Shown here: positions 1 to 27,113 of the stretch, piece by piece
How the letters are laid out: the number at the start of each line of letters is the position of its first letter
Numbering within the stretch: position 1 is the stretch's first letter
Virus record (IMG/VR): IMGVR_UViG_3300020045_004452
Location: 1 to 28,750 of that record
DNA: 28,750 bases
Strand: one strand, 5' to 3'
DNA from: a virus
Taxonomy: Duplodnaviria; Caudoviricetes
The notes under the pieces: generated by a model
Database searches by the model: none
What the model was told of the DNA's origin: nothing
The model's input: only the letters and a program-made list of their open reading frames with translations
Program-made: the position numbers and the translations under genes

Positions 1-26
1 GGGAATTAACAACAAAAACTTATCAA

Positions 27-1684: not shown

Positions 1685-1695
1685 AATTAAAACTT

Positions 1696-2274
1696 ATGAA
1701 ATACGAAATTACAAAAGAGCAGATACTTCATGTGGAAAAAATAGCAACTTATGCGGTGTCTAAAGAATTAAAAGAATGGTTTCCAGAAGCTTTTGAAACG
1801 GTTTTTGATCCACGGAAATACTACAGGGTAGTAACTGGAGGCGATGGAGCATTAGGAGCTAATGATAGAATTGGGAAAGTTATTCAAAGACCAGAAACAG
1901 AGCCGAAAGATTACGGAGGCGAAATGTTTGATTCTAAAAAACATACTGGAATTTATATTGAGTTGCCGTCTGGTAGAGTATGGGGTTTGTGCGCTGGGTA
2001 TAAATTAAAAGAAGCCACAGAATCAGAAGTTTTCGAAGCTTTGAAGAATGAGTTAACAAGATTAGGATTTGTTAATGGAGTTTATGCAAATCCATTACTA
2101 GACAAGAGAGATATTGTGAAAATTGATTTAGGATTTAAAACTTCATTTATTCCTAGTGAAAATGAGTTTTGGATGGGTGGGTATTGCTTATTTAAAGACG
2201 GTGTGTTTGCTGAAATAATCCCAACTATCACAAAAGAAGAAGCTGAAAAATTGTTAAACAAGAAAATCGTATAA
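1696..2274 (+). CDS. Hypothetical phage protein, 192 aa
   Basis: ORF with an AATTAAAACTTATG leader; tightly packed with its neighbours. Confidence 0.85.
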   Translation: MKYEITKEQILHVEKIATYAVSKELKEWFPEAFETVFDPRKYYRVVTGGDGALGANDRIGKVIQRPETEPKDYGGEMFDSKKHTGIYIELPSGRVWGLCAGYKLKEATESEVFEALKNELTRLGFVNGVYANPLLDKRDIVKIDLGFKTSFIPSENEFWMGGYCLFKDGVFAEIIPTITKEEAEKLLNKKIV

Positions 2275-2858: not shown

Positions 2859-2875
2859 TAAATGTATTTTTGATT

Positions 2876-2903
2876 AAACCTCCCAATGTGGAGGTTTTTT
2901 TTT
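2876..2903 (+). terminator. Intrinsic terminator ending the first gene block
   Basis: AAACCTCC-CAATGT-GGAGGTTT followed by a T run. Confidence 0.8.
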
Positions 2904-2910
2904 ATCTTTG
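2903..2910 (+). promoter_or_regulatory. Bacteroidota -7 promoter element for the terminase operon
   Basis: TATCTTTG matches TAnnTTTG and lies 5 nt before ATG 2916. Confidence 0.65.
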
Positions 2911-2915
2911 TCCGT

Positions 2916-3389
2916 ATGAGTGGGAAAAGTTTAGACAAGGAAACTGCAATAAAATCAATACTTTCTGATTTAAAGAGAGGGATTGACAAACCTACTATTA
3001 CGTCCAAGATTGCCCGTAAATGTCCAAAAACCAACGAGCGGACAATTAGGCGATGGTTTGAATCGGCAAACCTTAAGTATCAGGAGTTCATGAGAGTTGC
3101 AACTCCAATTATCGAAGCAAAAGAAATTGAAGCATTAGCAGAAGTTGCAGCGTCTGGAATACTTTCTAAGATAGAAAGGCAAAAAATACTCACTCAAATC
3201 GCATTAGGCGAAATTCCATTAACAAAGCACATAGTAGTTAATCGAATGATTGAAGAAGTTGAGATAGTTCCCAATTGGTCAGATAGGAAAAACGCTATTG
3301 ACTTACTCAACAAAATGGACGGGGCTTATTTGAAAGAAGAGCCAGAGGACGAACACGAATTTAACGGATTTGATATACAAGATGTTTAA
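2916..3389 (+). CDS. terS: Terminase small subunit
   Basis: Directly upstream of and overlapping TerL. N-terminal HTH-like segment, C-terminal SDRKNAIDLLNKMDG and an acidic tail typical of TerS. Start moved from 2886, which lies in the terminator, to 2916. Confidence 0.75.
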   Translation: MSGKSLDKETAIKSILSDLKRGIDKPTITSKIARKCPKTNERTIRRWFESANLKYQEFMRVATPIIEAKEIEALAEVAASGILSKIERQKILTQIALGEIPLTKHIVVNRMIEEVEIVPNWSDRKNAIDLLNKMDGAYLKEEPEDEHEFNGFDIQDV

Positions 3390-4599
3390 GCCAAAATCAA
3401 TAATAAAACTCCTTAAGCATCAAAGAGCTTTTGTAGTATCTAGGATTAAGCACACTATTTTAGTTGCTGGCTTCGGATCTGGCAAAACGGAATCAGCTGT
3501 CACGAAAGCTGTTTATATCCTGACATCAACTCATAAGAAATTAAATGTAGGATATTATTTACCTAATTACCCTTTGATTAATGATATTGCGGTGCCTAGA
3601 TTTCAAGAGTTTTTCGAAAAGCATAACATCCAGTATAAATATAATTCAAGCGAAAAAGTATTTAAAACTAAGTTTGGAAAGATTCTATTAAGGAACATGA
3701 CCAAACCTGAGACTATTGTAGGTTACGAAACTTTTTACGCAATAATTGACGAAATCGACATTCTGCCAAAGAATAAAGCAAAAGCTGTATTTAATAAAAT
3801 TATTGCACGTAATAGACAAGTTGATCCTAGAGGTCGTAATAATTCGATTGACTTGGTTAGTACTCCAGAGGGCTTTAATTTTCTTTACAATTTTTCAGTA
3901 AAAGAAGCTACCGAAGAGAAGCTGTTGATCAAAGCCAAAACAAACGACAATCCTTTTCTCCCCGCTGACTACATTTCTACATTAGCGGCTCAATATACCG
4001 AAGAGGAATTGACCGCGTATATCAATGGGGAATTTTGCAACCTTACAAGCGGAACGGTTTACAAGTCATACAAGCGAGACAAATATAATACAACCCGCAT
4101 TGCTCTTCCTGGTGAGCCGTTGTATATCGGAATGGATTTCAACATCGAAAAAATGTCTGCTATCATTTACGTAATCGATGGAGGCGCAATGTATGCAGTA
4201 GATCAGATTATAAATAAGTACGATACAGCCGATTTAGCAGACGCAATTCGTGAAGCGTATCCAACGAATGCGATAGAGATAAATCCTGATGCTTCATGTC
4301 GTGCTAGATCTTCCGCAGGCTTATCTGATTATGATATTTTGATAGATGAAAAATATAATTTCAATGTAAATGCCAGAAGGAAAAACCCCGAAATTTCACA
4401 CCGTATCAGAGCCGTAAATAAATCCTTTGAGATTGGAAAACTTTTTGTAAATTTGGAAAAATGTCCAGACCTTGCCGATGCACTTGAACAACAAGCCTAC
4501 GATAAAGGATTGCCAGATAAGAAAAGCGGCGTGGATCATGTCCTAGACGCTGCAGGTTATGCAGTTGTAGAGCAGATATATCGATCAGGGTTGGATTAA
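3370..4599 (+). CDS. terL: Terminase large subunit
   Basis: Walker A AGFGSGKT, Walker B AIIDE, coupling motif STPEG, and RNase H-like nuclease motifs IGMDFN and DHVLDA. Confidence 0.95.
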   Translation: MIYKMFKPKSIIKLLKHQRAFVVSRIKHTILVAGFGSGKTESAVTKAVYILTSTHKKLNVGYYLPNYPLINDIAVPRFQEFFEKHNIQYKYNSSEKVFKTKFGKILLRNMTKPETIVGYETFYAIIDEIDILPKNKAKAVFNKIIARNRQVDPRGRNNSIDLVSTPEGFNFLYNFSVKEATEEKLLIKAKTNDNPFLPADYISTLAAQYTEEELTAYINGEFCNLTSGTVYKSYKRDKYNTTRIALPGEPLYIGMDFNIEKMSAIIYVIDGGAMYAVDQIINKYDTADLADAIREAYPTNAIEINPDASCRARSSAGLSDYDILIDEKYNFNVNARRKNPEISHRIRAVNKSFEIGKLFVNLEKCPDLADALEQQAYDKGLPDKKSGVDHVLDAAGYAVVEQIYRSGLD

Positions 4600-4611
4600 A
4601 AACTTATCATT

Positions 4612-4757: not shown

Positions 4758-4994
4758 ATGAAAGCATTGTTTAGAAATCACTTTCCATTCGTGGAAGGTA
4801 CGCCAATAGAAGAACTAGACAGTAGTCAATTACTTATCAAACAAACCTATGACAAACTTTATTCTAGTGATAGTGTTCCTGCTGTTGCTGATAGCACGGA
4901 GGAAAGCCGACAAGATACCAAAGCCACGATTAAAGCAGATCGATTACGAAAAGTTCACACTGATGAACGTCAGGCTGAAGGAAGCGGAGAATGA
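4758..4994 (+). CDS. Hypothetical protein, 78 aa, overlapping the next gene
   Basis: AT-rich leader 2 nt after the previous stop; overlaps ORF 4849 by 146 nt. Confidence 0.4.
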   Translation: MKALFRNHFPFVEGTPIEELDSSQLLIKQTYDKLYSSDSVPAVADSTEESRQDTKATIKADRLRKVHTDERQAEGSGE

Positions 4995-5538
4995 GGGAAA
5001 CGATATTGATGTAGTCTTTGAAATATTACAGACGTTCTATCCTAACGACCAAAGAGACTGGCGGGTGTGTATTGCTGAGTTTGCGGAATTGCAGAAACAG
5101 CTCATAACATATCGGTTAAAGTTGGATTTAGATTTTAAAAGCAAGCCAGCTCGTTATTATATTAAAGCAGATACGTTACTTGCAAATGCTGATTTGGTTG
5201 GATTATACAATCACCTAAGCGGAGACAGTAAGAAGAATATTGATATTCATTTTGCTAGACAGGTTAAGGACGAATATTTGCAGTCCGTGGATTATTTCAA
5301 GAAAACTTGGGAATGGATATTTGAACCGCCCGCAATGCCCGGGATAAAGAAGTGGACAGCTGGGCGTGATATGAGAAATGAGTTTCATGCATATTATGGA
5401 AGCTATGCAGAAATAACTTATTTGATTGCTATCACGGAATCTATAAGTTTCGAGAAAGCAAATAGTAAAAACCTAATGGAGTATTTATCTGTTGGAGAAT
5501 ATTTAATCAGAAAAAGAGCCGTTGAGTCGGTGGAATAG
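4849..5538 (+). CDS. Phage protein, possible tail assembly chaperone-like, 229 aa
   Basis: The C-terminus YGSYAEITYLIA...LMEYLSVGEY resembles the protein that follows TerL in Bacteroidota siphoviruses. Function inferred from position. Confidence 0.6.
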   Translation: MTNFILVIVFLLLLIARRKADKIPKPRLKQIDYEKFTLMNVRLKEAENEGNDIDVVFEILQTFYPNDQRDWRVCIAEFAELQKQLITYRLKLDLDFKSKPARYYIKADTLLANADLVGLYNHLSGDSKKNIDIHFARQVKDEYLQSVDYFKKTWEWIFEPPAMPGIKKWTAGRDMRNEFHAYYGSYAEITYLIAITESISFEKANSKNLMEYLSVGEYLIRKRAVESVE

Positions 5539-22324: not shown

Positions 22325-22467
22325 AAAAACCATTCTGGAAAACAACATTAGGAATAATCACAAAAAATATCTTAACGTTAGGTATAGGTATGATTATTAA
22401 GAATCAAAAAGGAATCAAAGGAACTGATAACGTAAAAAAAATTGATGAAGTGCTAGATAAAATTTAG
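22321..22467 (+). CDS. Small cationic amphipathic peptide, 48 aa (not in ORF track)
   Basis: MKKPFWKTTLGIITKNILTLGIGMIIKNQKGIKGTDNVKKIDEVLDKI*; ATGA overlap with the endolysin stop. Confidence 0.7.
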   Translation: MKKPFWKTTLGIITKNILTLGIGMIIKNQKGIKGTDNVKKIDEVLDKI

Positions 22468-22469
22468 TT

Positions 22470-22485
22470 TGGCACGGTAATTGCA
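22470..22485 (+). promoter_or_regulatory. Sigma-54 (-24/-12) promoter consensus
   Basis: TGGCAC-GGTAA-TTGCA with exact GG-N10-GC spacing, intergenic. Confidence 0.7.
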
Positions 22486-22517
22486 ATACTTAATACATAA
22501 CATTTAAAACTTATACT

Positions 22518-22601
22518 ATGAAAACTATCAACAGATTATTCGAAGCTTTTTACGATGGAATGGGTAAATTTCTAACAGGAAATACAAGATTCCTAACATA
22601 G
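22518..22601 (+). CDS. 27-aa peptide (not in ORF track)
   Basis: MKTINRLFEAFYDGMGKFLTGNTRFLT*; lies between the sigma-54 site and a terminator, with a TTAAAACTTAT leader. Confidence 0.55.
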   Translation: MKTINRLFEAFYDGMGKFLTGNTRFLT

Positions 22602-22607
22602 TAAAAT

Positions 22608-22646
22608 AAAAAATCCCGCTACAAATCAATGAGCGGGATTTTTTTT
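22608..22646. terminator. Bidirectional intrinsic terminator
   Basis: AAAAAATCCCGCT-ACAAATCAATG-AGCGGGATTTTTTTT, with an A tract before and a T tract after. Confidence 0.85.
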
Positions 22647-22717
22647 GCAATCACTTAGCTGTATCCAGAACTTACAACCCCTTCGAGAATATCTATACCA
22701 GTTGCTGACTACTGATT

Positions 22718-22744
22718 AAAAAAAACCACTCCCGAAAGAGTGGT
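22718..22744 (-). terminator. Minus-strand intrinsic terminator with a UUCG loop
   Basis: The minus strand reads ACCACTC-T-TTCG-G-GAGTGGT followed by seven more T. Confidence 0.85.
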
Positions 22745-22771
22745 AAAAAACTAATCAATTAAAACTTATCT
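22718..22771 (-). ncRNA. Predicted ~50-nt small RNA antisense to the AAAACTTATC start-region motif
   Basis: TATATTTG -7 box at 22782-22775; 5' sequence GATAAGTTTTAATTG; UUCG terminator; no coding capacity. Confidence 0.55.
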
Positions 22772-22774
22772 ATG

Positions 22775-22782
22775 CAAATATA
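22775..22782 (-). promoter_or_regulatory. Bacteroidota -7 promoter element directly after the YqaJ stop codon
   Basis: TATATTTG(CA) on the minus strand; no clear -33 TTTG at canonical spacing. Confidence 0.55.
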
Positions 22783-23562
22783 CTAAAAATCTTCATTGCT
22801 TATACTAGCAGGGTCAAAAACTTTTGCGTCATTCACTACGATGTTGTTGACAGCGACAGGATTGCCGAGCCATTGAGCATTGCGTTTGATAGTCTCTACA
22901 TATTCATCACGTAGTTTAACAGCAATCAAAATTCTTTCCTCTATCAGCGCAATAGTTTCCTCACAGCGAGGTACTATAATTTCATGCCAATATTCTTCCC
23001 CATCTTGAATATAATACACGAAATAATAACACTGGGTTGCTCCTGTGTCTTTCATTTGTTTTTGCATTTGAAAGAAGTACTTTTTATCAATTTCATTCGT
23101 AAGGACCACACGAAAGAAAGTTGTTTTGTTTGGGCATTTTATTTCCAGCACTGAATTATTGCTTACTATTCCGTCTGGACTTGACCCGCTTACTCCGTCA
23201 TTGCTTACAAATTCCGATTCGTAAACTTCCAAGAACTCCAGCGCTTTTTGATTCTTAAATTTTTCAAAGGCCAGTGGCTCTCGTTCTTTTCCTTCTTGCA
23301 CAGATGCGGACAAATAAGCATCTTCTTCTGGATCAACAAAAAAATCAATTGCTTTCTCCAGCGCATAGGTTTTTAATCCTTCTGGAATATCCCACGTTGT
23401 GGTTTTTCTTGAATTCGGATTCTCCAGTTTGTATGCAGCCAGTTCCTCTTCAGTCATTTTTCGTGATCCATCGGCACATAGATTCACAATTGGACTGGCT
23501 GTAAATTTCTTTGCACGTTGTTTGTGCCACTCTGGGCTACGCTGGGCTATTTGCTCTGACAT
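22783..23562 (-). CDS. YqaJ/lambda-exonuclease-family nuclease
   Basis: Motifs QRSPEWHKQR...FTAS, EGKEREP, SSPDG, LEIKCP and YFFQMQKQM. Confidence 0.92.
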   Translation of the reverse strand: MSEQIAQRSPEWHKQRAKKFTASPIVNLCADGSRKMTEEELAAYKLENPNSRKTTTWDIPEGLKTYALEKAIDFFVDPEEDAYLSASVQEGKEREPLAFEKFKNQKALEFLEVYESEFVSNDGVSGSSPDGIVSNNSVLEIKCPNKTTFFRVVLTNEIDKKYFFQMQKQMKDTGATQCYYFVYYIQDGEEYWHEIIVPRCEETIALIEERILIAVKLRDEYVETIKRNAQWLGNPVAVNNIVVNDAKVFDPASISNEDF

Positions 23563-24070
23563 AATCTATGTATTTAGTTTCCATTTCTGGAGTTATTGAA
23601 TAATGTTTTTTAATAAGCTCTAGTGTTGCTTTTTGGGCGTGTGCTGGTTGAAAATTTACTTCTGAGAATACAGGCAGTACTTTGGTTAAAACTGGTAGAA
23701 TCGGCTTTATTCTGATACCGTCAGTAATAGCCCCCATCATTTTAACATTTCTATCTACATACAATTCGATAGTAAGCCCTTTCCAGTTCTCAATGATATG
23801 ACAATCTTTACCAATTAAACCGCCTTTCTTTGCAAAACCAGCCAGAATCTTATTGTTTGTAGAGTTCAGTTTGAGCGGTTTAACTGGCTGTGTAAAGTAG
23901 CAAAATATACCGTCCATTTTAGTCCCTGATACATCTACACCAGTTTCAAATTTCACTTCTGATATTGTGAAAAGCAGCGGGATTCCGTCTGTTTCCATTG
24001 CGTCTAAATCTGCACTTGCGAGGTGCGTTGACTTGCGATACTTACGCCAGTCTGTGTGTGTTTGTTCCAT
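23537..24070 (-). CDS. Hypothetical protein in the recombination operon (candidate exonuclease partner), 177 aa
   Basis: Overlaps the YqaJ start; motifs TDWRKY...LASADL, LKLNSTNNK and ENWKG. Confidence 0.8.
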   Translation of the reverse strand: MEQTHTDWRKYRKSTHLASADLDAMETDGIPLLFTISEVKFETGVDVSGTKMDGIFCYFTQPVKPLKLNSTNNKILAGFAKKGGLIGKDCHIIENWKGLTIELYVDRNVKMMGAITDGIRIKPILPVLTKVLPVFSEVNFQPAHAQKATLELIKKHYSITPEMETKYIDYVRANSPA

Positions 24071-24088
24071 TTTGATAAGTTTTAATTG

Positions 24089-24583
24089 TTAAAATTGTAT
24101 TCCTTGTCCAATAAGGAAAGAAATGTGTTTTTCTTTAGTGTCTAGAAATTCCCCGTTTAAGGTCTTAAAAATAAGTTTATTGGTATCTAGTATCAACAAC
24201 GTGTGAGCTTGCCTGTGTTGTCTTGTTTTTAAAATAATTATATCCTTTAAAAAAGAAGTGTTGTAATTCCAGTGATGCAGTTCAAATCCTTTAGGTATAT
24301 TAAAATCACGATTTAGGTTTTTATAAGTAGATGTATTTTTCCATGGCTTGTCTTTGTTCAAAGTCTTACTTCTTTCTAGATAATTTAAACGATGGTATTT
24401 TTCCTTACTTCTTTCTCGTTCTTTTTCGATAAAATCAGGATCATTTGCTTTTCTGTAATAATCGCTCTTTACATCTGATTTATTACAAGTTTTGCATTTA
24501 TTCACGTGACCGTCTGACATTTGGCTATGTCTGTAAAATTCGGTTAACGGCTTTTCTTTGTTGCATTTAAAACATACCTTCAT
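24089..24583 (-). CDS. Zn-finger/HNH-type endonuclease
   Basis: CFKC...EFY...CKTC N-terminal Zn finger; C-terminal ELHHWNY...HRQAH. Confidence 0.7.
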
Positions 24584-24604
24584 ATAATTTGATTTAAATT
24601 TTTA

Positions 24605-24636
24605 CAAAGATATGTTTTTAAAATGGTAAATACAAA
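24605..24636 (-). promoter_or_regulatory. Complete Bacteroidota sigma-A promoter for the HNH gene
   Basis: Minus strand TTTG (24636-24633), 20-nt spacer, TATCTTTG (24612-24605). Confidence 0.75.
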
Positions 24637-24639
24637 TAA

Positions 24640-25011
24640 TTAAAACGGTAAATCCGACGCTTCTTCTTCGTTTGTAGCAGACGTGTTGTTTGGCAAAGCT
24701 GGTTGTTTTGCCAAATAAGCATCCGCAGGGGATTGAGGTTGCGCTTTCTCAATTCTCCAGCCTTGAATTGAATTGAAATAACGAGTTTCTCCAGCTGGAT
24801 TTACCCACTCACGCCCACGCAGATTGATAGATACTTTCACAGGTTGTCCGACTTGGTACGCACTCAGTAAATCACATTTGTCTTGTGTAAATTCAATTAA
24901 AATGTGTTGCGGATATTGCTCGTCTGTAGTAACAACCAATTCACGTTTTTTAAAAGCAGTAGAAACTTGTTGCTCTGCTCCAATGTGTTTAATAGACCCT
25001 AATACTTCCAT
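24640..25011 (-). CDS. DUF3127-family single-stranded DNA-binding protein
   Basis: FKKRELVVTTDEQYPQ...INLRGREW...YFNSIQGWRI, and an acidic C-terminal DLPF tail as in SSBs. Confidence 0.9.
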   Translation of the reverse strand: MEVLGSIKHIGAEQQVSTAFKKRELVVTTDEQYPQHILIEFTQDKCDLLSAYQVGQPVKVSINLRGREWVNPAGETRYFNSIQGWRIEKAQPQSPADAYLAKQPALPNNTSATNEEEASDLPF

Positions 25012-25013
25012 AA

Positions 25014-25265
25014 TTATAATTTTTTATTTTGTTCTTTTAACCTCGCTTTGACTATTTTTAAAGCTTTTTCTAAAACAGACAATCCTTCCAGATTTTTGAT
25101 AAAAACGACTGTTTTATTTGTTGTTACAGCATCTGTACCTAATAAAGAATCTTTTATTTTAAAATCATTTGATTCTATCAGTTCAAAAGATATATAAGGA
25201 ATATCTAATTCCGTTATCCTTCCAGCGCTTATTGCTGTTTTTGCATTCCCAAGTGTGTAATTCAT
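25014..25265 (-). CDS. Hypothetical protein, 83 aa
   Basis: First gene of the leftward operon; TTAAAACTTAT leader. Confidence 0.75.
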   Translation of the reverse strand: MNYTLGNAKTAISAGRITELDIPYISFELIESNDFKIKDSLLGTDAVTTNKTVVFIKNLEGLSVLEKALKIVKARLKEQNKKL

Positions 25266-25293
25266 AATAAATAAGTTTTAAATTAATATGATG

Positions 25294-25356
25294 CAATGTT
25301 ACGACGAAAATTTTAATTAAAAAAATTTTGAACTTAAAATTTTATGTATATATTTG
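25294..25356. promoter_or_regulatory. Divergent promoter region
   Basis: Plus strand: TTTG (25327-25330), 18-nt spacer, TATATTTG (25349-25356). Minus strand: near-consensus TAACATTG (25301-25294). Confidence 0.7.
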
Positions 25357-25378
25357 CAGATATAAAAAATCACTTATC

Positions 25379-25612
25379 ATGAAAACAAAAAATACGGAAG
25401 AAATAAAACCATCCAACCCTCGTGCGTTTCCTGATTCATCTATGGTAGATAATTTAGGAATGACACTGAGAGATTATTTTGCAGCTAAAGCAATGCAGGC
25501 ATATATATCTACATATTCCTCTCAAACGTCTGCTGAGCAAATAAAAAGTCATTCTGAATACATTTCTACGATGGCTTACGAAATTGCAGACTCAATGCTA
25601 AGACAACGTTAA
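25379..25612 (+). CDS. Conserved small phage protein (GMTLRDYFAAKAM family), 77 aa
   Basis: PRAFP...GMTLRDYFAAKAMQA...AYEIADSML is a widespread phage motif. Start set at the ATG downstream of the promoter. Confidence 0.85.
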   Translation: MKTKNTEEIKPSNPRAFPDSSMVDNLGMTLRDYFAAKAMQAYISTYSSQTSAEQIKSHSEYISTMAYEIADSMLRQR

Positions 25613-26125: not shown

Positions 26126-26544
26126 ACTTCTGCACCAGCGAAGCCAAGAAAGCAGAGGGTATTTATTGCGCTGCCTATGCCTGCCGAAATAAACCATGTG
26201 CTAAAAAGCGTGGATTATGTCACAAACATTATCACATTCACAGGCGCATTGTCGATCCTGTTTATGATAGGTATGTGAATTTTAGAGGTAATGCATTAAG
26301 ACGCTGTAAAGATTTCACTATCACGCTAGAGCAGTTTCGGGAATGGTGCGACAAAGAGGGATATATTGTGAAGCGTGGTTGTCGTGGTAAAAATGCTACT
26401 ATTGACCGAGTTATTAACACGGAGGGATATCACATTTGGAATATACAATTACTCAAAAATATGGCCAATATCAGGAAATACCACGACCACGATAAACATG
26501 TTACAGAATTACCAACAGATCATGAGGACTATGTGCCTTTTTAA
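26104..26544 (+). CDS. Zn-binding HNH-like protein, 146 aa
   Basis: CAAYAC...GLCHKHY Zn knuckle; TIDRVINTEGYHIWNIQLL...N is an IDR-type HNH-like segment. Confidence 0.6.
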   Translation: MFTPKSLNFCTSEAKKAEGIYCAAYACRNKPCAKKRGLCHKHYHIHRRIVDPVYDRYVNFRGNALRRCKDFTITLEQFREWCDKEGYIVKRGCRGKNATIDRVINTEGYHIWNIQLLKNMANIRKYHDHDKHVTELPTDHEDYVPF

Positions 26545-26556
26545 AAACTTATCATT

Positions 26557-26961: not shown

Positions 26962-27113
26962 CTAAACCCCCTAACGTACCATGCCCGCCACGTAACCCAC
27001 ACTGCAACGATATTATTGACAGCGTATCAATTGACAATCCTGTCTGGATAATCGCAATAATAGCTGGAATTATAATCTATTTATTAATCAAGAAAAAACT
27101 TATCAGGAAATGA
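26958..27113 (+). CDS. Small single-pass membrane peptide, 51 aa (not in ORF track)
   Basis: MTKPPNVPCPPRNPHCNDIIDSVSIDNPVWIIAIIAGIIIYLLIKKKLIRK*; ATGA overlaps at both ends. Confidence 0.7.
   Translation: MTKPPNVPCPPRNPHCNDIIDSVSIDNPVWIIAIIAGIIIYLLIKKKLIRK

What the first reader, a model, noticed from the sequence alone, without database searches (positions are those of the whole stretch)
22718..22782. Candidate phage small RNA whose 5' seed is antisense to a motif shared by many phage start regions
Seen: on the minus strand, right after the YqaJ stop, is a Bacteroidota -7 box (TATATTTG, 22782-22775). It is followed 3-5 nt later by (A)GATAAGTTTTAATTGATTAG, then a UUCG hairpin and U tract (22744-22718), giving a non-coding unit of about 50 nt. 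Its first 15 nt are the perfect complement of CAATTAAAACTTATC, the mRNA leader of the 24070 gene (24088-24074). They also pair over 6-13 nt with the leaders of about nine other genes (next finding). This is the only copy of the motif I found that does not precede a real gene; on the plus strand it precedes only M-Q-I-Y-stop. Inference: a trans-acting sRNA, made from its own promoter or cut from the operon's 3' end, that blocks the translation-initiation regions of a set of non-virion genes. It could act as an early-to-late or lysis-lysogeny switch in a phylum that largely does not use Shine-Dalgarno pairing.
Basis: partly seen in the sequence, partly recalled or inferred. Interest (0 to 1): 0.9.

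Follow-up and report, generated by a model that had tools for sequence, protein, structure and literature searches.

The report
Phage small RNA mirrors early-gene tags
An uncultured phage of Flavobacterium-type bacteria carries a short tag just before the start codons of about eight non-structural genes, plus a 53-base unit that looks like a small RNA gene and begins with the tag's exact complement; tag and complement change together in related phages, so the RNA likely turns those genes down together, although no transcript has been seen.

Summary
Observation confirmed. On the minus strand after yqaJ lie a TATATTTG box, 4 nt, a 53-nt unit starting GATAAGTTTTAATTG (22770) and a terminator. Eight of nine AAAACTTAT copies precede an ATG; the ninth is this unit read backwards. 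No virion or lysis leader has the tag (0 of 22; early 7 of 20).

The unit is kept in 10 relatives with different terminators. Among 105 loci with the same gene pair, all 8 with the unit have a pairing tag; 0 of 97 without it have the exact tag. Seed and tag switch together once (GATAAG/ACTTATC to GATAG/ACTATC). One seed variant pairs only through G-U. The link persists across three different recombination-slot genes.

Best reading: a FopS/GibS-like trans-acting repressor of non-virion translation (about 0.7). No RNA data exist. The GATAG lineage has only two targets. A lysis-lysogeny role is unsupported: no integrase or repressor was found in two complete relatives.

My literature searches did not find it in print. 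This scan has noted the same kind of system in at least 19 other genomes (AI notes, mostly unchecked), but not this family.

The parts
22775..22782 (-). Bacteroidota -7 promoter box TATATTTG, directly after the yqaJ stop; no -33 TTTG
   Evidence: TA..TTT is invariant in 10 aligned carriers. A spacing of 4-5 nt to the start site is given in PMC6847099.
22718..22770 (-). Predicted 53-nt small RNA: single-stranded 5' arm plus terminator; also the 3' end of the leftward early operon
   Evidence: MFE structure leaves nt 1-26 unpaired, unpaired probability 0.56-0.98. No Rfam match.
22756..22770 (-). Seed GATAAGTTTTAATTG, starting at the predicted +1
   Evidence: Exact complement of 24088-24074. GATA and TTTT are invariant. 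No difference listed in a 36.2-kb relative.
22718..22744 (-). Intrinsic terminator: 8-bp stem, UUCG loop, U tract
   Evidence: the only minus-strand terminator-like site found in 22400-25500.
22612..22646 (+). Hairpin plus T run that likely ends the late/lysis transcript before it reaches the plus-strand copy of the motif
   Evidence: A near-identical hairpin serves as the unit's terminator in G001-G003.
22783..23562 (-). yqaJ exonuclease gene; its leader has no tag
   Evidence: PF09588, E 1.5e-15; phrog_149.
23537..24070 (-). Partner gene of yqaJ (phrog_21613, function unassigned; sits where relatives have Sak4-like or RecT-like genes); best target
24074..24088 (-). Target tag, 15-nt perfect match, -17.9 kcal/mol
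15..24 (+). Target tag of gene 27 (541 aa, unknown), -13.2 kcal/mol; tag also present in orthologues
1685..1697 (+). Target tag overlapping the ATG of gene 1696, -13.7 kcal/mol
4599..4608 (+). Tag before the 47-aa ORF 4612 after terL (gene status unproven), -12.1 kcal/mol
22504..22514 (+). Tag before the 27-aa ORF 22518 after the lysis genes (gene status unproven), -11.0 kcal/mol
25271..25281 (-). Tag of gene 25265, first gene of the leftward operon; one G-U pair, -10.9 kcal/mol
25372..25378 (+). Tag of gene 25379, first gene after the rightward promoter box at 25349; core only, -7.7 kcal/mol
26544..26553 (+). Tag of gene 26557, -10.8 kcal/mol
27095..27104 (+). Tag of the DNA methyltransferase gene 27110, -16.4 kcal/mol

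Best explanation
The 22770-22718 unit is likely a phage small RNA gene whose unpaired 5' seed would pair with a phage-specific ACUUAUC tag that sits 0-7 bases before the start codons of about eight non-virion genes, and would block their translation. Shown: the sequence anatomy, the tag's restriction to non-virion leaders, and conservation and co-variation across relatives. Inferred: (1) host sigma-ABfr polymerase starts at G22770 from the -7 box, and the same RNA may also come from the operon's 3' end; (2) the untranslated, hairpin-capped RNA accumulates during infection; (3) the duplex covers the A-rich positions (-6, and in most targets -12/-13) that Flavobacterium ribosomes favour in place of a Shine-Dalgarno sequence; (4) the result is delayed negative feedback on recombination, methylase and other early proteins in a probably lytic phage.
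For: Position: with the published 4-nt box-to-start spacing (PMC6847099) the seed begins at +1; spacing is 4 nt in 10 of 10 aligned carriers although the spacer letters differ. Specificity: ACTTAT lies in 7 of 20 early and 0 of 22 late leaders (Fisher p 0.003); 0 of 1000 shuffles pair as well. CTTATC is the top leader hexamer de novo in the window, G001, G002, G004 and G008. Not a host start signal: AAACTTATC-N0-5-ATG occurs at most 21 times per genome, about 5 per Mb at most, in 151 Bacteroidota genomes, against 5 leaders in 28.75 kb here. Co-occurrence: among 105 loci with both genes, 8 of 8 with the unit have a pairing tag (7 exact, 1 G-U variant); among the 97 without it, 0 have the exact tag and 1 has the G-U variant. 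Co-variation: G005, G006 and G177 have a GATAG seed and ACTATC tags; cognate duplexes are about -9.4 to -10 kcal/mol against -3 to -6 for crossed pairs. RNA-type pairing: GATAGG seeds (G007, L116) face ACTTATC tags. The link survives replacement of the target gene by Sak4-like and RecT-like genes. Precedent: GibS and FopS repress through 5' seeds near start codons.
Against: No transcript evidence. The -33 element is absent, and 4 of 11 carriers have A at the nearly invariant G of the box. Only one seed/tag switch is seen, in three related records, and the carriers are few and related (2 changes on a quick tree). In G005 and G177 only 2 leaders carry the tag, and top-five pairing is not better than shuffles (24 and 28 of 200), so a broad regulon is not universal. 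G003's own partner-gene leader pairs no better with its cognate seed (-5.3) than crossed pairs do. G-U-compatible tag variants are only weakly favoured (4 of 160 against 2 of 374). Most early genes, including yqaJ, ssb and the helicase, lack the tag. The duplexes are AU-rich and may need a chaperone. Repression rather than activation, and the timing, are inferred.
Confidence: 0.7

Rival explanations
1. No separate promoter: the seed acts as the 3' end of the leftward operon mRNA, folding back on the partner-gene leader 1.3 kb upstream or being released by processing.
For: The same terminator ends the operon. The best and most conserved target lies in that operon, and the unit follows the operon's last gene in all carriers. 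The box lacks -33 and ends in A in 4 of 11 carriers.
Against: TA..TTT and the 4-nt spacing are kept even behind non-homologous genes. Tags also lie on divergent transcripts, which fold-back in cis cannot reach.
Confidence: 0.12
2. The tag is read by a protein, either a RegA-like translational repressor or a DNA operator for the Cro-like HTH protein, and the copy at +1 is an operator or a by-product.
For: T4 RegA and RegB act on many early start regions (PMC3014915). The reversed copy sits at a promoter's +1, a usual repressor position. A change in protein specificity could also give co-variation.
Against: Tags are always in the sense orientation just before an ATG. An antisense copy cannot decoy an RNA-binding protein. 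The promoter would drive only this 53-nt unit. The HTH type does not follow the tag type: G002 has a G005-like helix but the window's tag. GATAGG seeds face ACTTATC leaders in G007 and L116.
Confidence: 0.08
3. The RNA pairs with the tags but promotes translation or stabilises the mRNAs.
For: Tagged genes include the first genes of both early operons, which may be needed soon after infection.
Against: The duplex would cover positions where adenines and lack of structure favour initiation (PMC6847099). FopS binding next to the start codon blocks translation.
Confidence: 0.06
4. Chance: an AT-rich 3' UTR that happens to mirror an ordinary Flavobacterium start region, or the remnant leader of a lost plus-strand gene.
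For: Seed and leaders are AU-rich. In the window a plus-strand ATG follows the motif (M-Q-I-Y-stop).
Against: The plus-strand ATG directly after the motif is absent in the relatives. The 15 unrelated hits to the box-plus-seed pattern showed no tagged-leader enrichment and, by inspection, no terminator. Tag in leaders: 24 of 71 copies in the tag clade against 0 of 74 in 18 other relatives.
Confidence: 0.02

Closest known systems
FopS and GibS small RNAs of Bacteroides thetaiotaomicron (PMC11697453: sections 7 and 8 and passages; PMC7366714: passages)
   Same: FopS has a sigma-ABfr promoter and a single-stranded 5' seed followed by an intrinsic terminator. Both FopS and GibS pair near start codons and repress. 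One FopS-like sequence was reported in a phage.
   Different: Here the RNA is single-copy and phage-encoded. Its predicted targets are the phage's own genes, which carry a dedicated tag that co-varies with the seed. No Rfam match.
Phage antisense regulators sar (P22), OOP and aQ (lambda), VpdS and PreS (review PMC12197685, parts 1-2 of 6 read); c4 RNA of P1/P7 and CI RNA of P4 (recalled, not read)
   Same: Phage-encoded RNA that controls phage development by base pairing.
   Different: As described there, sar, OOP and aQ each act on one phage gene, while VpdS and PreS depend on Hfq and act at least partly on host RNAs. This one mirrors a tag spread over several transcripts, in a phage with no detected lysogeny module.
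T4 RegA repressor and RegB nuclease (PMC3014915, passages)
   Same: Joint post-transcriptional down-regulation of many early mRNAs through their translation initiation regions.

Membership tests
FopS/GibS sRNAs | sigma-ABfr -7 promoter upstream (FopS) | tested here: met
   TATATTTG with 4-nt spacing, conserved; sequence only, activity not shown.
FopS/GibS sRNAs | Single-stranded 5' arm plus terminator hairpin | tested here: met
   Predicted fold.
FopS/GibS sRNAs | Seed complementary to regions next to start codons | tested here: met
   Predicted duplexes; binding not measured.
FopS/GibS sRNAs | Shared R1 seed sequence or family-level homology | tested here: inconclusive
   No Rfam 15 match at this unit. 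I could not confirm that FopS is in that release, and the R1 letters were not in the text I read.
FopS/GibS sRNAs | Multicopy paralogues (FopS) | tested here: not met
   One copy of this unit per record.
FopS/GibS sRNAs | RbpB binding | not testable with these tools
   Needs CLIP or EMSA.
c4/CI phage immunity RNAs | Match to the Rfam family; multi-stem processed RNA (features recalled) | tested here: not met
   No Rfam hit; single hairpin.
c4/CI phage immunity RNAs | Located in a temperate phage's immunity region (recalled) | tested here: not met
   No integrase, S24 repressor or resolvase in 4 of 4 carriers searched, two of them complete.
T4 RegA/RegB control | Phage protein that reads the early-mRNA site | tested here: inconclusive
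   No RegA/RegB family among the top PHROG hits of 39 window proteins. The record is 84% complete and many proteins are unassigned.

The most novel reading that the evidence does not exclude
These phages run an RNA address system. Each lineage marks its non-virion start regions with a private tag and encodes the matching anti-tag RNA, which works as a developmental timer and also silences a superinfecting phage with the same tag. Seed/tag switches (GATAAG to GATAG) and other flavours seen in relatives would then define exclusion groups without any repressor protein.
Probability: 0.25. Interest if true: 0.88.

Novelty: new variant of a known kind. Interest (0 to 1): 0.68.

Why it matters
How Bacteroidota phages time their gene expression is poorly described, and their hosts mostly do not use Shine-Dalgarno pairing. 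A 53-nt RNA with a co-evolving tag would be a minimal RNA counterpart of T4 RegA/RegB. This family supplies natural reciprocal seed/tag pairs, so base pairing can be tested directly in Flavobacterium johnsoniae reporters. It could also give a compact, retargetable knock-down scaffold for this phylum.

Tried and rejected
Expression: no RNA holder listed. The three DNA runs only show a 36.2-kb relative.

Rfam: nothing at the unit.

Cultured phages: no homologue of the unit among 50,697 records. The Riemerella phage hits (E 9) share only the promoter-like box; the one record opened has another 5' sequence. A similar-looking unit in Nonlabens phage P12024S pairs no better than shuffles (133 of 200).

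Genome collection: the scan gave one distant yqaJ locus without the unit, so no host was identified.

L004 was dropped as chimeric and truncated. Nine duplicate loci were also dropped, as were loci lacking either gene or enough flank.

Of 25 hits to the widened pattern, 4 were carriers.

G008 and G178 have tags, but their contigs do not show the junction, so they test nothing.

The TAACGA leader motif of G025 is mostly coding, and no unit was found there. The function of gene 27 and of the yqaJ partner gene stayed unassigned. The careful tree did not finish; the quick tree is used.

A sigma-pause reading (the seed resembles TANNTTTT) was considered and set aside: it does not explain the tags, and the unit does not precede late genes.

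Full report
CONTEXT. The window is an 84%-complete virus record. It has virion and lysis genes on the plus strand (about 2.9-22.5 kb), a leftward operon (25265 to yqaJ) and a rightward early operon from 25379. The closest cultured matches are Cellulophaga phage phi10:1 (48% identity in the yqaJ partner gene) and Nonlabens phage P12024 (26% in the portal). With the TANNTTTG boxes, this points to a Flavobacteriia host; the host is inferred, not identified.

OBSERVATION. After the yqaJ stop come TATATTTG, 4 nt, GATAAGTTTTAATTG, an 8-bp UUCG hairpin and a U tract. [quoted passage not shown] The RNA would therefore start at the G of the seed (22770) and be 53 nt long, with nt 1-26 predicted unpaired. 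Rfam has no match at the unit.

THE TAG. Eight of nine AAAACTTAT copies precede an ATG, and the ninth is the unit. With starts I curated by hand, ACTTAT lies in 7 of 20 early and 0 of 22 virion/lysis leaders (p 0.003), plus two small unassigned ORFs. Duplexes of -10 kcal/mol or better form with 6 of 20 early, 0 of 22 late and 2 of 2 unassigned leaders. None of 1000 shuffled seeds did as well, and the unit ranked first among 94 TANNTTTR boxes. The ACTTATC at 4832 is in frame in a coding ORF and is excluded; the raw leader counts include it and its orthologues. The tag is not a general host signal. AAACTTATC-N0-5-ATG occurs at most 21 times per genome in 151 unnamed Bacteroidota genomes (the share of Flavobacterium among them is unknown), against 5 leaders in 28.75 kb here.

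CONSERVATION. The unit recurs in G001-G004 (GATAAG seed), G007 and L116 (GATAGG), and G005, G006 and G177 (GATAG). Invariant columns include TA..TTT, GATA and TTTT; the spacing is 4 nt in all ten aligned, while spacer letters and terminators differ. An eleventh carrier, a 36.2-kb contig in DNA runs X1-X3, has no listed change in the seed or stem. It has four substitutions and an insertion in the next 12 bases, which remove the plus-strand ATG and give, by my reading of the difference table, TATCTTTA with a 5-nt spacer. Four of 11 boxes end in A instead of the near-invariant G, which may mean a weak promoter.

CO-OCCURRENCE AND CO-VARIATION. Among 105 loci with both the partner gene and yqaJ, the 8 with the unit have an exact tag (7) or a G-U variant (1). 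The 97 without it have no exact tag and one G-U variant. Kinship limits this: the label needs only two changes on the quick tree. Across whole records, 24 of 71 ACTTATC copies are A-rich leaders in seven records of the tag clade, against 0 of 74 in 18 other relatives. Where the seed loses one A, the leader loses one T. Cognate 10-nt duplexes are mostly -7 to -10 kcal/mol against -3 to -6 for crossed pairs; G003's own leader, at about -5, is the exception. The orthologue of gene 27 in G178 also has the ACTATC form, but its unit is not on the contig. GATAGG seeds face ACTTATC leaders, which requires a G-U pair. The unit and a tagged leader persist when the partner gene is replaced by a Sak4-like AAA protein (G007) or a RecT-like protein (G177).

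Against this, the switch is a single event. G005 and G177 have only two tagged leaders each and no significant multi-target signal. G-U variants among tags are only weakly favoured.

MECHANISM. The tag ends 0-7 nt before the ATG (the six cases at 10 nt look like the coding site). A duplex would therefore cover positions where adenines and low structure favour initiation in F. johnsoniae. GibS and FopS repress by pairing a single-stranded 5' seed near start codons, and FopS has the same promoter-seed-terminator layout. I therefore favour translational repression that builds up as the RNA accumulates. The terminator also ends the leftward operon, so a 3'-derived form is possible. A protein reader is less likely: tags are always sense and tied to start codons, and the Cro-like HTH type does not track the tag type. 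Lysogeny control is unsupported. The window, G002 and the complete G004 and G177 have no detectable integrase, S24 repressor or resolvase, whereas G014 has the first two but no tag or unit. A non-integrating carrier state is not excluded.

WIDER PICTURE. More distant relatives carry similar box-to-terminator units with other seeds. G022 (anti-TAACCAA) and G018 (anti-start-codon) pair better than all 200 shuffles and G019 is marginal (4 of 200); the G005, G009 and G017 units of the anti-start-codon type are not significant. Cultured phi10:1 has a unit that beats 200 of 200 shuffles. These shuffles keep base composition only, so they are leads.

KNOWN OR NEW. Seven searches of the open-access library listed no report of a Bacteroidota phage RNA that mirrors a tag in its own leaders. 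Subscription journals are not covered, one search returned off-topic papers, and I read no supplements; the FopS paper's supplement shows a phage copy that I did not see. Papers seen: PMC6847099, PMC7366714, PMC9723704 and PMC3014915 as passages; PMC11697453 as sections 7 and 8 plus passages; PMC12197685 as parts 1-2 of 6. The features of c4 and CI RNA are recalled; one search gave only a listing. This scan holds 20 earlier notes matching my search words in at least 19 other genomes, of which I saw 8. It holds none for this sequence or its look-alikes. They are AI notes, mostly unchecked, and are not counted as support.

VERDICT. The element is real and conserved, and is most likely a trans-acting repressor RNA (0.7). 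It works like FopS/GibS but is not shown to be a member of that family. It is a new variant of a known kind, with no expression evidence yet. Interest 0.68.

Noticed in passing
G018:17827(-), G019:7059(-), G009:14440(-), G012:16028(-), G017:15171(-), G005:28454(-), L056:20162(+): A second type of box-to-terminator unit whose 5' end (mostly TTCATAAT...) mirrors the common start context AATT-ATG-AA. In five records it lies near the early/late boundary, just before a terS-like gene. Pairing beats shuffles in G018 (0 of 200) and marginally in G019 (4 of 200), but not in G005, G009 or G017; G012 and L056 were not tested.
   Followed up: partly
G022:25279(+): Unit before the prohead protease gene containing TTTATTGGTTAAT, the mirror of that phage's top leader motif TAACCAA (primase-like and other leaders); 0 of 200 shuffles as good.
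   Followed up: partly
L219:20044(-) (Cellulophaga phage phi10:1): Intergenic box-to-terminator unit in a cultured phage that pairs with AACTAA-rich leaders better than 200 of 200 shuffles; a possible experimental model.
   Followed up: partly
L015, L016, L043, L106 just after yqaJ; G004:6601(-); G020:4036(+): A recurring element: TATATTTG box, then GTCGTC or GTGGTC-type sequence pairing with a later GACGAC or GACCAC and a hairpin. In G004 it precedes an HNH endonuclease gene; possibly a regulatory leader of mobile endonucleases.
   Followed up: no
window 4758-4994 and 4849-5538: Two overlapping ORFs in different frames after terL, with the overlap peptide conserved in relatives; resembles a programmed-frameshift tail chaperone pair.
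   Followed up: no
G001:18807 and 20466(+), G002:4829-5083(-), G008:10091(-), window 4612 and 22518: Small unrelated ORFs lying in or next to the late region carry the tag, so the tag may mark non-virion cargo rather than early timing as such.
   Followed up: partly
window 2865-2916: A TATTTTTG box, a hairpin with T run and a second box TATCTTTG directly before the likely terS start; may be an attenuated late promoter.
   Followed up: no
L253:7860-7995(-) (Riemerella phage vB_RanS_PT03): Box-to-hairpin unit facing away from two antirepressor genes; different seed, possibly a sar- or c4-like regulator.
   Followed up: no
L004: A holin-like gene runs directly into yqaJ on the same strand; probably a chimeric contig.
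   Followed up: partly
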